From the NCBI GenBank assembly GCA_043228905.1, contig JBHGNT010000011.1, positions 6,882,001 to 6,946,000 of the forward strand: 64,000 nucleotides of DNA, read 5' to 3'. Positions 7,309-47,806 of this stretch are shown here, in pieces. The number at the start of each line of letters is the position of its first letter. Positions within the stretch are counted from its first letter, which is position 1. A model generated the notes under the pieces. It did not search any database, was not told where the DNA came from, and saw nothing but the letters and a program-made list of their open reading frames with translations. The position numbers and the translations under genes are program-made. The DNA comes from Azolla caroliniana. Lineage: Eukaryota; Plantae; Polypodiophyta.

Positions 7309-7920
7309 AGTATCATTTGTACTACTGGCTCGGACCATGTACCGGAATGTCGAAAATATATCCCAGTTTTGTCGCAAATATATATTGTGCGAAGCTGTTC
7401 GTTCGCATATGAACTGCAATACCCATGTGTGCACTCCGACTAGAGCAGGGTAGTATGGACCCCCTCTCCTCGACAACCCACTATACGCCCCCAAATGTTT
7501 GAAAGGCATAGAGAATCCAACAGAGCGAGCAACAATGCCCTAGAAGATGACAGGAGATTTTGGTCGTCCTTCACGCCGTTGGGGGGGATCGAACCCAAGT
7601 CACCCGCGTGACAGGCGGGAATACTCACCACTATACTACAACAACATGTTGGCGTTGGAGAAAGTATCCTTTGTACTACTGGCTCGGACCATGTACCCAA
7701 ATACATAGCCCGGTTTCGTCCCAAATATATGTTATGCAAAGCTGTTCGTCCGCATAATGACTCCAATACCCATGTGTGCACTAGGACTATATCATGGTAG
7801 TATGGACCCTGTCTCCTTGACAACCCACTGTACGCCCCCATGTGTTTCAAAGGCATAGAGAATCCAACAGAGCGAGCAACAATGCCCTAGAAGATGATAG
7901 GAGATTTGCCCCGTCCTTCA

Positions 7921-7992
7921 CGCCGTTGCCGGGGATCGAACCCGGGTCACCCGCGTGACAGGCGGGAATACTCACCACTATACTACAACGAC
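7921..7992 (-). tRNA. trnD-GTC: tRNA-Asp(GUC), intact
   Basis: GTCGTTGTAGTATAGTGGTGAGTATTCCCGCCT-GTC-ACGCGGGTGACCCGGGTTCGATCCCCGGCAACGGCG; full cloverleaf, plant cytosolic type; CAA motif at -6. Confidence 0.95.
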
Positions 7993-10747
7993 ATGTTGGT
8001 GTTGGAGAAAGTATCATTTGTACTACTGGCTCGGACCAGGTACCGAAATGTCGAAAATATATCCCAGTTTTGTCGCAAATATATGTTGTGCGAAACTATT
8101 CGTTCGCATATGAACTGCAATACCCATGTGTGCACTCGGACTAGAGCAGGGTAGTATGGACCCTCTCTCCTTGACAACCCACTGTACGCCCCCAAATGTT
8201 TGAAAGGGATAGAGAATCCAACAGAGCGAGCAACAACGCCCTAGAAGATGACAGGAGATTTGACTTCACGCCGTTGGAGGGGATCGAACCCGAGTCACTC
8301 GCGTGACAGCCGGGAATACTCACCACTATACTACAACGACATGTTGGTGTTGGAGAAAGTATTATTTGTTCTACTAGCTAGGACCATGTACCGAAATGTC
8401 GAAAATATATCCCAGTTTTGTCGCAAATATATGTTGTGCGAAGCTGTTCGTTCGCATATGAACTGCAATACCCATGTGTGCACTCGGACTAGATCAGGGT
8501 AGTATGGACCCTGTCTCCTTGACAACCCACTATACGCCCCCAAATGTTTGAAAGGGATAGAGAATCCAACAGGGCGAGCAACAATGCCCTAGAAGATGAC
8601 AGGAGATTTGAGCTGTCCTTCACGCCATTGGTGGGGATCGAACCCGTGTCACCCGCGTGACAGCCGGGAATACTCACCACTATACTACAACGACATGTTG
8701 GCGTTGGAGAAAGTATCCTTTGTACTACTGGCTCGGACCATGTACCGGAATGTAGAAAATATAGCCCGGTTTCGTCCCAAATATATGTTATGCGAAGCTG
8801 TTCGTCCGCATATGAAATCCAATACCCATGTGTGCACTAGGACTAGATCATGGTAGTATGGACCCTGTCTCCTTGACAACCTACTGTACGCCCCCAAGTG
8901 TTTGAAAGGTATAGAGAATCCAACAGAGCGAGCAACAATGCACTAGAAGATGACAGGAGATTTGAGCCGTCCTTCACGCCGTTGGAGGGGATCGAATCCG
9001 AGTCACCCGCGTGACAGGCGGGAATACTCACCACTATACTACTACGACATGTTGGCGTTGTAGAAAGTATTATTTGCTCTACTAGCTAGGACCATGTACC
9101 AGAATGTAGAAAATATATCCCAGTTCTGTCCCAAATATATGTTGTGCGAAGTTGTTCGTTCGCATATGAACTCCAATACCCATGTGGGCACTATGACTAG
9201 AGTAGGGTAGTATGGACCCTCTCTCCTTGACAACCCATTGTACGCCCCCAAATGTTTGAAAGGGATAGAGAATCCAACAGAGCGAGCAACAACGCCCTAG
9301 AAGATGACAGGAGATTTGACTTCACGCCGTTGGAGGGGATCGAACCCGAGTCACTCGCGTGACAGCCGGGAATACTCACCACTATACTACAACGACATGT
9401 TGGTGTTGGAGAAAGTATTATTTGTTCTACTAGCTAGGACCATGTACCGAAATGTCGAAAATATATCCCAGTTTTGTCGCAAATATATGTTGTGCGAAGC
9501 TGTTCGTTCGCATATGAACTGCAATACCCATGTGTGCACTCGGACTAGATCAGGGTAGTATGGACCCTGTCTCCTTGACAACCCACTATACGCCCCCAAA
9601 TGTTTGAAAGGGATAGAGAATCCAACAGGGCGAGCAACAATGCCCTAGAAGATGACAGGAGATTTGAGCTGTCCTTCACGCCATTGGTGGGGATCGAACC
9701 CGTGTCACCCGCGTGACAGCCGGGAATACTCACCACTATACTACAACGACATGTTGGCGTTGGAGAAAGTATCCTTTGTACTACTGGCTCGGACCATGTA
9801 CCGGAATGTAGAAAATATAGCCCGGTTTCGTCCCAAATATATGTTATGCGAAGCTGTTCGTCCGCATATGAAATCCAATACCCATGTGTGCACTAGGACT
9901 AGATCATGGTAGTATGGACCCTGTCTCCTTGACAACCTACTGTACGCCCCCAAGTGTTTGAAAGGTATAGAGAATCCAACAGAGCGAGCAACAATGCACT
10001 AGAAGATGACAGGAGATTTGAGCCGTCCTTCACGCCGTTGGAGGGGATCGAATCCGAGTCACCCGCGTGACAGGCGGGAATACTCACCACTATACTACTA
10101 CGACATGTTGGCGTTGTAGAAAGTATTATTTGCTCTACTAGCTAGGACCATGTACCAGAATGTAGAAAATATATCCCAGTTCTGTCCCAAATATATGTTG
10201 TGCGAAGTTGTTCGTTCGCATATGAACTCCAATACCCATGTGGGCACTATGACTAGAGTAGGGTAGTATGGACCCTCTCTCCTTGACAACCCATTGTACG
10301 CCCCCAAATGTTTGAAAGGGATAGAGAATCCAACAGAGCGAGCAACAATGCCCTAGAAGATGACAGGAGATTTGAGCCGTCCTTCACGCCGTTGGAGGGG
10401 ACCGAACCCGAGTCACCCGCGTGACAGGCGGGAATACTCACCTCTATACTACAACGACATGTTGGTGTTGGAGAAAGTATCATTTGTTCTTCTAGCTCGG
10501 AGTATGTACCGGAACGTCGACAATATATCCCAGTCTTGTCGCAAATATATCTTGTGCGAAACTGTTCGTTTGCATATGAACTGCAATACCCATGTGTGCA
10601 CTCGGACTAGATCAGTGTATTGTATAGTATGGACCGTGTCTCCTTGACCACCCACTGAACTCCCCCAAATGTTTGAAAGGGATAGAGAATCCAACAGAGC
10701 GAGCAACAATGCCCTAGAAGATGACAGGAGATTTGAGCCGTCCTTCA

Positions 10748-45800: not shown

Positions 45801-46501
45801 GCGGAAGAGCGTGAGCCGAAGAGCTACGCAGAAGGGGCCAAGGACACCAATTGGCGTGCCACTATGCAGGAAGAAATGCGGGCACTTGATGTCAACAAGA
45901 CATGGGACCTGGTTGACCCTCCTCGTCACTGTAAACCGATCGGATGCAAGTGGATATACAAGGTAAAGTACAACGCCGACGGTTCTGTTAACCGATATAA
46001 AGCCCGATTAGTGGCGAAGGGATACGCGTAGACCCACGGAATCGACTACGACGAGACCTTCGCTTCGGAAGTGAAGATGACGACGGTTCGTGTGGTGCTG
46101 GTGGTTGCTGCAGCAAGGGGGTTGAATAAGCCTTACCCGGCAAGCGAGATGGATCGGTAAGCTGTGAGCAACCAAACCGGCTAGCAACAGAGCCCGTGAG
46201 CTTGGGAGCCGGTTAGCCGGATCGAATCAGTAATCGGAAGCCTAGTATTAGCGTAGACTACTAGGCAATTATAGTCTCGTAGTAAGTGTCAGATACTCGT
46301 GTGAGCATTGAAGCGCGCGGTACTTCTGTTAGTCCCATGAAGACTTGTATAAATAATGCTACTGAGCATACTTGTATGTACAAAGGTTTTTTTTTTTTTT
46401 TGAATATAGCCTTGAAGTTCTGCTCTCTCTGTCTCTCCCGTGTACTCTGTGTATTCCCTACCTTCTCTGTTTTCTAACGCTTCCGCAAGTAATCGTTTAC
46501 A
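42880..46501 (+). mobile_element. Ty1/copia element C, decayed, with most of RT, RNase H and the PPT deleted
   Basis: 5' LTR 42880-43273, PBS iMet, gag, CWYYGKKGH knuckle, WYVDSGAS protease, integrase (IHLDVWGP), RT start, partial 3' LTR ~46123-46501, TSD AACGA (42875-42879 / 46502-46506). Confidence 0.93.
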
Positions 46502-47806
46502 AACGACATGTTGGTGTTAGAGGAAGTATAGTATAGTGGTGAGTACTACTTGTTTGGACCATCTACCGGAATGTTGAAAACATGGCCCGGTGTCGTCGCC
46601 AATACATGTTATGTGACGATGTTCGTTCACATATGAACTGGAATACCCATGTGTGCACTTGAACGAGATCATGGTAATATGCACCCTGCCTCGCTGACGA
46701 CCACTGTACGCCCCCAAGTCTTCGTAAGGGGTACAAAATCTGGTGGAGCGAGCAAAGATTGGCCTAGAAGATGACAGGAGATTTGCCCTGCCCTTCGCGC
46801 TGTTGCTGGGGATTGAACCCAGGTCACCCACGTGACAGGCGGGAATACTCACCACTATACTACAACGACATGTTGATGTTGGAGGAAGTATCCTCTGTAC
46901 TACTTGGTCGGACCATGTACCGGAATGTCAACAACATAGCCCGGTTTCGTCGCAAATACATGTGTGCGAAAATGTTCGTCCACATATGAACTATAATACC
47001 CATGTGTGCAGTCGGACGAGATCATGGTAATATGGGCCTTGGCTCGCTAACAACCCACTATACGCCCCCAAGTGTTTCAAAGGGATAGAGAATACAATGA
47101 TGCAAGCAAGAATGCCCTAGAAGATGACAGGAGATTCGCCCCGTCTTTCGCGCCGTTGCCGGGGATCGAACCCAGGTCACCCGCGTGACAAGCGAGAATA
47201 CTCACAACTATAGTACAACAACATGCTGGTGTTGGAGGGTATATCCTCTGTACTACCTACTGGAATGTCGAAAATATAGCCCGGTTTCGTCGCCAATCCA
47301 TGTTATGTGATGATGTTCGTCTGCATATGAACTGGAATACCCATGTGTGCACTTAGACTAGATCATGGTAATATAGTCCCTCTCTCGCTGACGACCCATT
47401 GTACGCCCCCAAGTGTTCAAAAGGGATAGAGAATCCAGCGGAGCGAGAAAGAATGCCCTAGAAGATGACAGGAGATTTGCCCCGGACTTCGCGCCGTTGC
47501 CGGGGATCAAACCCGGGTCACCCGCGTGACAGGCGGGAATACTCACCACTATACTACAACGACATGTTGGTGTTGGAGGAAGTATAGTATAATGCTGAGT
47601 ACTAGTTGTTCGGACCATGGACCAGAATGTCGAAAACATGGCCCGGTGTCGTCACCAATACATGTTATGCGACGATGCTCGTTCACATATGAACTGAAAT
47701 ATCCATGTGTGCATTGGAGGAGATGATGGTAATATGTACCCTACCTTGTGGACGACCCAGTGTACGTCCCCAAGTCTTCGTAAGGGGTACAAAATCTGGC
47801 GGGACA
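46502..47806 (-). repeat. tRNA-Asp tandem array segment 4 (3 tRNA copies at ~46797, 47150, 47492)
   Basis: Same unit, diverged. Confidence 0.9.

What the first reader, a model, noticed from the sequence alone, without database searches (positions are those of the whole stretch)
7309..47806. Satellite-like tandem array of ~68 tRNA-Asp(GUC) genes
Seen: about 24 kb of head-to-tail ~270-360 bp units, each with one tRNA-Asp, all on one strand. At least 9 are perfect; the rest range from one mismatch to broken. Known: tandem tRNA clusters exist (Arabidopsis tRNA-Pro and Tyr-Tyr-Ser clusters, Entamoeba arrays, S. pombe centromeric tRNA genes), but I do not recognise a plant tRNA-Asp array of this kind. 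Inference: a tRNA gene has become the monomer of a satellite. With higher-order repeats and dense nested LTR insertions, it may be a centromeric/pericentromeric or chromatin-boundary element that uses Pol III/TFIIIC sites structurally.
Basis: partly seen in the sequence, partly recalled or inferred. Interest (0 to 1): 0.85.

Follow-up and report, generated by a model that had tools for sequence, protein, structure and literature searches.

The report
Decaying tRNA-Asp gene array in fern
A real run of 68 head-to-tail aspartate-tRNA genes, likely in a fern genome, in which single copies decay like junk DNA while the tRNA part stayed intact in the copies that founded new stretches, so it is likely an unusually large, mostly silenced tRNA gene cluster of a known plant kind rather than a centromere repeat.

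Summary
In detail: 68 tRNA-Asp(GUC) copies on the minus strand, modal unit 354 bp, 23.6 kb of array, 9 copies identical to the consensus and 13 fully paired. Spacer-matching contigs occur in short-read runs of two studies. The best named copia hits are from a fern. On terminal branches the tRNA mutates at the spacer's rate (132 vs 128 expected); on the deepest branches it is frozen (3 vs 33) while spacers diverged 8-18%. CG/CHG transitions run four times the CHH rate, implying methylation. This fits a birth-and-death tRNA homocluster, like the Arabidopsis and maize clusters but larger and of an isotype not listed for land plants. No direct support for a centromeric role was found. Oddities: 64 of 68 copies lack a nearby Pol III terminator; 37 carry an inverted copy of the tRNA's own 5' arm; inherited damage spares nt 8-62 but not the acceptor ends (p 0.03-0.05, post hoc), a weak hint of selection on the promoter. 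The scan had not noted this array elsewhere. A recalled, unread supplement may already mention such clusters.

The parts
7309..11940 (-). Array segment A, copies 1-13; 9-10 copies share T-stem-breaking changes, two copies (2, 10) are perfect; holds a 3-unit 1056-bp duplication at 7993-10104
16332..29496 (-). Array segment B, copies 14-52; most units carry the inverted copy of the tRNA 5' arm upstream of the gene
19690..27260 (-). Youngest part: four copies of a 5-unit ~1.63-kb higher-order repeat plus a 3-unit partial; each block has one perfect tRNA followed by a newly gained T5 run 27 nt downstream, one near-perfect tRNA and three damaged ones
38436..42879 (-). Array segment C, copies 53-65, with a 229-bp foreign insert at 40082-40310
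46502..48052 (-). Array segment D: 5' tip of copy 65, copies 66-68 and a tRNA-less partial unit; the array's upstream end
1..7308 (-). Ty3/Gypsy element inserted in a spacer (5' LTR 6920-7308); runs off the window, so the array may continue beyond it
11941..16331 (+). 5'-truncated element of the same Gypsy family (3' LTR 15955-16331)
29497..38435 (+). Ty1/Copia element in a spacer (5-bp target duplication, LTRs 6.4% apart) holding a nested Gypsy at 30300-35600 (5-bp target duplication, LTRs 4.4% apart)
42880..46501 (+). Ty1/Copia element that splits tRNA copy 65 in its acceptor stem (5-bp target duplication, LTRs 9.3% apart): the oldest dated insertion
48053..52800 (-). Degraded mitochondrial-type insertion fused to the array end: 5' half of small-subunit rRNA gene (to 48742) and tRNA-Cys(GCA) at 49643-49713; far boundary approximate

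Best explanation
This is a tandem cluster of 68 tRNA-Asp(GUC) genes, likely in a fern nuclear genome, that likely evolves by birth and death: unequal exchange duplicates one to five units at a time, most copies are likely methylated and then decay at the neutral rate, and a minority of intact copies likely kept seeding and repairing the array under selection for a working Pol III tRNA gene. Shown: copy number, structure, duplications, insertions, neutral terminal decay, deep conservation of the tRNA, excess CG/CHG transitions. Inferred: methylation itself, silencing of most copies, transcription of the intact few (best candidates: the four perfect copies with a T5 terminator), and selection rather than conversion as the cause of deep conservation. 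Units without a terminator would give long read-through RNA that RNase P and RNase Z would have to trim (established enzymology, not tested here).
For: Terminal branches: 132 tRNA changes vs 128 expected from the spacer (138 vs 127 on a spacer-only tree); branches with 9+ descendants: 3 vs 33 (3 vs 29) (66 of 68 copies, the two fragments left out). Tree-free: alleles in one copy 42 vs 41.4 expected, alleles in 10+ copies 3 vs 20.5, Fisher p 0.004. Four spacer subfamily consensuses differ at 21-43 of 234-271 sites, but three of them have the same tRNA consensus. 72-site windows slid along the spacer never fall below 0.77 of the expected internal count; the tRNA gives 0.35. CG and CHG transitions 5.7% and 5.8% per site vs 1.4% at CHH in 47 collapsed lineages, as expected of methylated clusters such as those of Arabidopsis (PMC7544208 abstract). 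13 of 68 copies keep all 20 stem pairs, GUC and both boxes; CAA-rich sequence precedes the genes. The only T-run of 4+ within 30 nt of a tRNA end is a T5 behind 4 perfect copies. Higher-order duplications (1.6-3.5%) are younger than the three datable LTR insertions in the array (4.4-9.3%), so turnover continued after invasion. Copy 10 (both trees) and copy 2 (spacer tree) need back-changes to wild type, as conversion or exchange would give.
Against: Duplication does not need a working tRNA: the 3-unit duplication holds no intact copy, and most of the 14 internal branches with tRNA changes carry stem-breaking ones. The four T5 copies descend from one ancestor, so the link of terminator and perfect tRNA is a single event. 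Copies without any tRNA change on long terminal branches are 6 of 34 (1.8 expected) on one tree but only 4 of 34 (1.9) on the other, so present-day selection is weakly shown. 64 of 68 copies lack a proximal terminator, unlike the Arabidopsis Pro clusters. On branches with 2-8 descendants the acceptor ends change at the neutral rate (18 vs 16) while nt 8-62 do not (12 vs 45), which pure tRNA selection does not predict. Recombination inflates spacer counts on internal branches. No expression or methylation data were seen.
Confidence: 0.62

Rival explanations
1. The array is kept for its Pol III promoters, not its tRNA: units with intact A-to-B-box DNA bind TFIIIC/Pol III and are favoured, either by selection for a chromatin boundary or organiser or because bound units recombine and duplicate more often.
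For: Inherited changes spare nt 8-62 but not nt 1-7 and 63-72: 13 vs 15 collapsed events on internal branches against 77 vs 37 on terminal ones (p 0.049; 0.028 on the second tree). Only 3 of 33 inherited changes hit a box, one a tolerated B-box variant. 45 of 68 copies keep both boxes but only 13 keep the cloverleaf. Shared alleles in A+B boxes 7 vs 22 expected, in stems 37 vs 38. Most units have no terminator.
Against: The anticodon stem-loop, which TFIIIC does not read, is conserved as strongly as the boxes (0 vs 9.6 and 5 vs 17). Boxes alone are 3 of 33 internal vs 27 of 130 terminal changes, a small contrast. The core-versus-ends split was chosen after seeing the data and rests on 14 branches. 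On terminal branches the boxes decay near neutrally (27 vs 35). Stems are rich in methylatable sites, so recurrent mutation inflates their shared alleles.
Confidence: 0.15
2. A functionless satellite that happened to start from a tRNA gene; its tRNA part is reset now and then by short gene conversion from ordinary tRNA-Asp genes or from intact neighbours, with tracts tapering at the gene ends.
For: Neutral decay on terminal branches; blind duplication of broken copies; back-changes to wild type in copies 2 and 10; weaker conservation at both gene ends; spacer has no structure (z +0.7) and no convincing Rfam match.
Against: Steady conversion should also lower terminal counts, which are at expectation (88 vs 94 in nt 8-62). 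On the deepest branches the ends are conserved too (2 vs 9). 72 bp is short for ectopic conversion (own knowledge).
Confidence: 0.14
3. The array is a centromeric satellite that binds CENH3.
For: Higher-order repeats and nested LTR insertions; no host gene seen in 64 kb and an organellar insertion next door; a chromodomain-family Gypsy nearby; 354 bp is near two nucleosome lengths.
Against: No internal half-repeat (score 17 vs 17.3 shuffled). Monomers only 84% alike with 228-520-bp lengths. Plant tRNA genes are reported absent from centromeres (PMC13437025 passages; PMC13578239 section 22). The five dated or mapped insertions lie at scattered offsets in the unit. As a weak hint only, since the tool warns that depth is no copy number: summed contig depth peaks at about 4200 against 10-14 for long single contigs in X2, which would mean hundreds of copies, not megabases.
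Confidence: 0.06
4. The unit is a tRNA-headed mobile element (SINE, or a Helenus/Cassandra-type mini LTR element) that formed a tandem array.
For: tRNA head plus ~280-bp unrelated body with the first T4 about 218 nt downstream; such elements keep the A and B boxes and lose the cloverleaf (PMC10886601 passages).
Against: The consensus head is a complete tRNA with all 20 pairs and GUC (Rfam 60 bits). No A- or T-tail of 5+, and no purine tract followed by TG on either strand.
Confidence: 0.03

Closest known systems
Plant tDNA homoclusters: Arabidopsis tRNA-Pro (24, 9, 6 copies) and tRNA-Cys (0.4-kb units), maize tRNA-Ile (28), Ceratodon Ile/Cys (26, 18, 14) (PMC7544208 abstract and section 13; PMC10701932 abstract; PMC11700998 passages; PMC12652284 passages)
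   Same: One isotype, same orientation, tandem units of a few hundred bases, pseudogene copies, transposons at the locus, signs of methylation.
   Different: Asp isotype (no land-plant Asp cluster in the summary sheet of Table S3 of PMC13437025); at least 68 copies; higher-order repeats; most copies damaged; no proximal poly(T), whereas Pro clusters conserve it; inverted 5'-arm copy in 37 units.
Arabidopsis Ser-Tyr-Tyr cluster (27 units, ~40 kb; PMC7544208 section 13; PMC12308677 abstract)
   Same: Similar size, heterochromatic setting, silenced in most cells; a model for conditional use of the intact copies.
   Different: Three-gene unit with well conserved flanks and shown expression in root tips; here single-gene units with neutral decay and no expression data.
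Plant 5S rDNA arrays (PMC13578239 section 22)
   Same: Pol III genes in long tandem arrays within heterochromatin of which only a subset is active.
   Different: 5S arrays are the sole source of an essential RNA; here the gene is a tRNA that plants normally also carry as dispersed copies.
tRNA-derived tandem repeats of amphibians (Xenopus OAX, newt PolIII/TAN); names from scan note e1-9535991, papers not read
   Same: A tRNA-type Pol III promoter plus unrelated body of about 360 nt as a satellite monomer.
   Different: Those heads are tRNA-like; here the consensus is an intact tRNA-Asp. Not compared by sequence.
Fission-yeast centromeric tRNA gene barriers (PMC13578239 section 22 passage)
   Same: Many A/B boxes inside repetitive chromatin could bind TFIIIC.
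   Different: [quoted passage not shown]

Membership tests
Plant tDNA homocluster | Five or more tRNA genes within 5 kb (definition of PMC13437025) | tested here: met
   About 14 genes per 5 kb; 39 consecutive copies in 13.2 kb
Plant tDNA homocluster | One isotype, adjacent, same orientation, repeated unit | tested here: met
   68 of 68 derive from tRNA-Asp(GUC) on the minus strand
Plant tDNA homocluster | Contains structurally intact genes with A and B boxes | tested here: met
   13 of 68 fully paired with GUC and both boxes; 9 identical to consensus
Plant tDNA homocluster | Methylated and mostly silent (typical, not part of the definition) | tested here: inconclusive
   Indirect only: CG/CHG transitions four times CHH; no methylome or RNA seen
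Plant tDNA homocluster | Conserved poly(T) terminator just downstream (typical of Pro clusters; less frequent in non-flowering plants) | tested here: not met
   4 of 68 have T4+ within 30 nt
Centromeric satellite | CENH3 binding and centromere position on most chromosomes | not testable with these tools
   No genome held for this window; no ChIP data
Centromeric satellite | Higher-order repeats | tested here: met
   3-unit x2 and 5-unit x4
Centromeric satellite | Homogeneous nucleosome-scale monomer or its dimer | tested here: not met
   354-bp mode, 228-520 range, 84% identity, no half-repeat
Centromeric satellite | Megabase abundance | tested here: inconclusive
   Summed contig depth hints at hundreds of copies, but the tool states that depth is no copy number
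tRNA-derived SINE | Degenerate tRNA head and A/T-rich or simple-repeat tail | tested here: not met
   Intact consensus head; no A5 or T5 in the consensus unit
tRNA-derived SINE | Dispersed copies with target duplications | not testable with these tools
   No genome held
Helenus/Cassandra-type TRIM array | LTR with primer site after it and polypurine tract followed by TG before it | tested here: not met
   Purine runs of 8+ are followed by TCCA, TATA, TAGA or TGCC, none placed as a PPT before a tRNA-bearing LTR; primer-like sites were not compared with a tRNA set
tRNA-gene-targeting retroelements (Ty3/Ty1 type; recalled) | Insertions at a fixed distance upstream of tRNA genes | tested here: not met
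   Junctions at 265, 118 and 72 nt downstream of a gene, one inside a gene

The most novel reading that the evidence does not exclude
A plant 'promoter satellite': the array is maintained for dozens to hundreds of TFIIIC/Pol III sites rather than for tRNA, with terminator-less units reading through into the next gene and the inverted 5'-arm copy folding that RNA into a 23-bp hairpin that sequesters the A-box arm and could feed small-RNA silencing. It would be the first tRNA-gene chromatin barrier or organiser in a plant.
Probability: 0.15. Interest if true: 0.78.

Novelty: new member of a known kind. Interest (0 to 1): 0.42.

Why it matters
Recent surveys describe land-plant tRNA clusters as compact and limited to a few isotypes, with ferns barely sampled. 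This array is an Asp cluster more than twice the size of the maize and Arabidopsis single-isotype clusters and shows, copy by copy, a gene cluster turning into satellite. It also warns that very high tRNA gene counts in ferns may be largely decaying arrays. Because copies carry private variants, Pol III occupancy can be mapped per copy, which makes the open question of tRNA-gene barriers in plants directly testable.

Tried and rejected
No whole genome was held, so chromosome position, dispersed copies and total number are open. Runs X11 and X12 (organisms C and D) gave no laid contigs on the spacer, no proof of absence. Read support covers a spacer only, not the tRNA part or the junctions. A spacer motif found 0 matches in metagenome contigs. 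Spacer as structured RNA: rejected (one Rfam hit at E 0.13, far below its cut-off; fold z +0.7). 177-bp dimer: rejected. TRIM, SINE and tRNA-targeted insertion: rejected as far as testable. A first reading that stems are wholly unconstrained was dropped, because event counts show stems also depleted on internal branches (27 vs 48). Pfam on 8 short frames of the organellar insertion: 0 hits. Gypsy and chromovirus protein searches and the Atlas placed the host only among land plants. Ten paper searches listed no paper on a plant tRNA-Asp array; subscription papers are not covered. The supplementary PDF of PMC6786969 and the zip of PMC12652284 were too large to read and may bear on novelty.
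Full report
Observation. The array is there as described. BLAST with an intact window copy finds 68 tRNA-Asp(GUC) copies from 7574 to 47563, all on the minus strand, 9 identical to the consensus and two fragmentary. ARAGORN and Rfam 61 of them. The modal unit is 354 bp (64 measured, range 228-520) and median monomer identity is 83.6%. At the left end a Gypsy LTR sits in mid-spacer and its element runs off the window, so 68 is a minimum.

Reality and host. Contigs from short-read runs of two studies (X2, organism A, 288 contigs; X8, organism B, 161) lay on a 267-bp spacer, several running into a tRNA 5' end; 36 of the 40 listed variant letters occur among the window's copies, and one variant at 15-19% of depth occurs in none of 47 aligned window copies, which points to further copies elsewhere. 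The best named relatives of a copia frame are mostly from the fern Adiantum nelumboides; the best named relatives of the Gypsy pol are from liverworts at about 40%. A fern host is therefore likely; the species is not established. Earlier scan notes on this genome also infer a fern (unchecked).

History. Three LTR elements in the array have 5-bp target duplications and LTR pairs 9.3%, 6.4% and 4.4% apart; the oldest splits a tRNA gene, the youngest is nested in the second. A 3-unit duplication is 2.1% diverged and four copies of a 5-unit block 1.6-3.5%, so the array kept expanding after it was invaded. Insertion points lie at scattered offsets, giving no sign of tRNA-gene targeting. The flanks are retroelements and organellar DNA with no host gene seen, so the array is not richer in LTR elements than its surroundings.

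Anatomy of the unit. The consensus tRNA keeps all 20 tested stem pairs, GUC and a G discriminator; 13 of 68 copies match this, 45 of 68 keep both promoter boxes. CAA-rich sequence precedes each gene. The consensus has no terminator near the gene: the first T4 is usually about 218 nt downstream or absent, and only 4 of 68 copies have T4+ within 30 nt; these four are the perfect monomer of the 5-unit block, which gained a T5 by two C-to-T changes. That is one ancestral event. Non-flowering plants have proximal T-runs less often than angiosperms (PMC13437025 passages), so the absence is notable but not disqualifying. In 37 of 68 units, including all of copies 23-50, a short spacer stretch 20-40 nt upstream has been replaced by an inverted copy of the tRNA's own 5' arm, most simply by template switching (inference); with the gene it folds into a hairpin of about 23 bp (z -4.9). 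The spacer itself has no structure or family.

Selection test. I compared tRNA and spacer changes with context-matched rates. Tree-free, alleles seen in one copy are at expectation (42 vs 41.4) but alleles in 10+ copies are depleted (3 vs 20.5; p 0.004). On trees of 66 copies (two fragments left out), terminal branches give 132 vs 128 and 138 vs 127, branches with 9+ descendants 3 vs 33 and 3 vs 29. Clean clade-specific alleles in nt 8-62 are 3 vs 15. Four spacer subfamilies differ at 21-43 of 234-271 sites, yet three share the same tRNA consensus; the fourth differs at three T-stem sites. Transitions at CG and CHG run at 5.7-5.8% against 1.4% at CHH (47 lineages after collapsing recent duplicates). 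So single copies decay neutrally and were probably methylated, while the lineages that founded subfamilies kept the tRNA. Caveats: recombination inflates spacer counts on internal branches, and evidence for selection today is weak (unchanged long branches 6 of 34 vs 1.8 on one tree, 4 of 34 vs 1.9 on the other).

A result against the simple reading. On branches with 2-8 descendants nt 8-62 are spared (12 vs 45) but nt 1-7 and 63-72 are not (18 vs 16); after collapsing clustered changes the contrast with terminal branches has p 0.049 and 0.028. Most of the 14 branches involved carry cloverleaf-breaking changes, and the 3-unit duplication has no intact gene. This fits retention of the A-to-B-box promoter, or conversion tracts that taper at gene ends. 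But the anticodon arm is spared as much as the boxes, the split was post hoc, and boxes decay near neutrally on terminal branches. I treat it as a lead.

Mechanism. Most likely (0.62) a birth-and-death tDNA homocluster: unequal exchange, methylation and decay of most copies, and a few intact, possibly conditionally expressed genes that reseed it. Rivals: promoter-maintained structural array (0.15), neutral satellite reset by conversion (0.14), centromeric satellite (0.06), mobile element array (0.03). For the centromere idea the higher-order repeats are real but small, there is no 177-bp half-repeat, plant tRNA genes are reported absent from centromeres, and contig depth, which the tool says is no copy number, hints at hundreds of copies rather than megabases. 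A pericentromeric position remains possible and untested.

Comparison with print. Homoclusters are an established class: Arabidopsis Pro and Cys, maize Ile and Ala, barley Gln, Ceratodon Ile and Cys (PMC13437025 section 10 and passages; PMC13578239 sections 6, 22, 23 and passages; PMC12652284 passages; PMC11700998 passages; PMC7544208 abstract and section 13; PMC10701932 and PMC12308677 abstracts). In the summary sheet of Table S3 of PMC13437025 Asp appears only for a nematode, Chlamydomonas, human and mouse (first 30 of 136 hits seen, covering that sheet); whether any fern entered that cluster analysis I did not see. Ten searches listed no paper on a plant tRNA-Asp array. Azolla filiculoides is reported with over 7,500 tRNA genes and over 10,000 tRNA-like sequences (PlantRNA 2.0 preprint passages). 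I recall, without having seen it, that the supplementary discussion of the 2018 water-fern genome paper (PMC6786969; main-text passages seen) mentions tandem tRNA-Asp clusters; that file could not be read. Helenus and Cassandra (PMC10886601 passages) were tested and not met.

Verdict. Real, well formed and larger than the documented single-isotype plant clusters, but of a known kind: new member, interest 0.42. The bold reading, a promoter-maintained tRNA satellite acting on chromatin in a plant, is not excluded (0.15) and would deserve about 0.78.

Noticed in passing
window 15895-15954 (+) and 30676-30735 (-): The Gypsy family in the array has no polypurine tract; a tRNA-3'-end-like stretch ending in CCA lies 2 nt before the 3' LTR, as earlier scan notes on this genome describe. 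The tRNA-Arg assignment comes from those notes and was not tested.
   Followed up: partly
window, upstream of 37 copies, all of 19264-28626: Inverted copy of the tRNA's own 5' arm replacing a few spacer bases; two length variants; it has not been co-corrected with the adjacent gene in the copies inspected.
   Followed up: partly
window 48053-52800: Mitochondrial-type insertion fused directly to the array end: half rrn18, tRNA-Cys(GCA), and a broken stretch near 50800-51700 that by eye resembles a group II intron reverse transcriptase (recalled motif; Pfam gave no hit).
   Followed up: partly
window 40082-40310 and 63214-63440: A 229-bp insert in a spacer is 88.6% identical to a stretch near the window's end, probably an LTR fragment.
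   Followed up: no
window 57223-62879: Complete chromodomain-family Gypsy with LTRs 1.9% apart, the youngest element in the window, nested in a copia.
   Followed up: partly
window 12920-15424 and 31304-33825: The Gypsy family carries a long extra coiled-coil frame of no Pfam family; Atlas neighbours at 0.82 or less are land-plant clusters.
   Followed up: partly
window 17882, 18548, 19977, 27872: Four decayed copies have changed anticodons (GUA, GCC, GUG, CUC); each also has a stem or box defect, so gene finders would miscount them as Tyr, Gly, His and Glu genes.
   Followed up: yes
window 39596-39665: About 70 bp of foreign A/T-rich sequence replaces the 5' tip and leader of copy 56.
   Followed up: no
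window 63655-63879: 54-bp tandem repeat, 4.2 copies, 93% matches.
   Followed up: no
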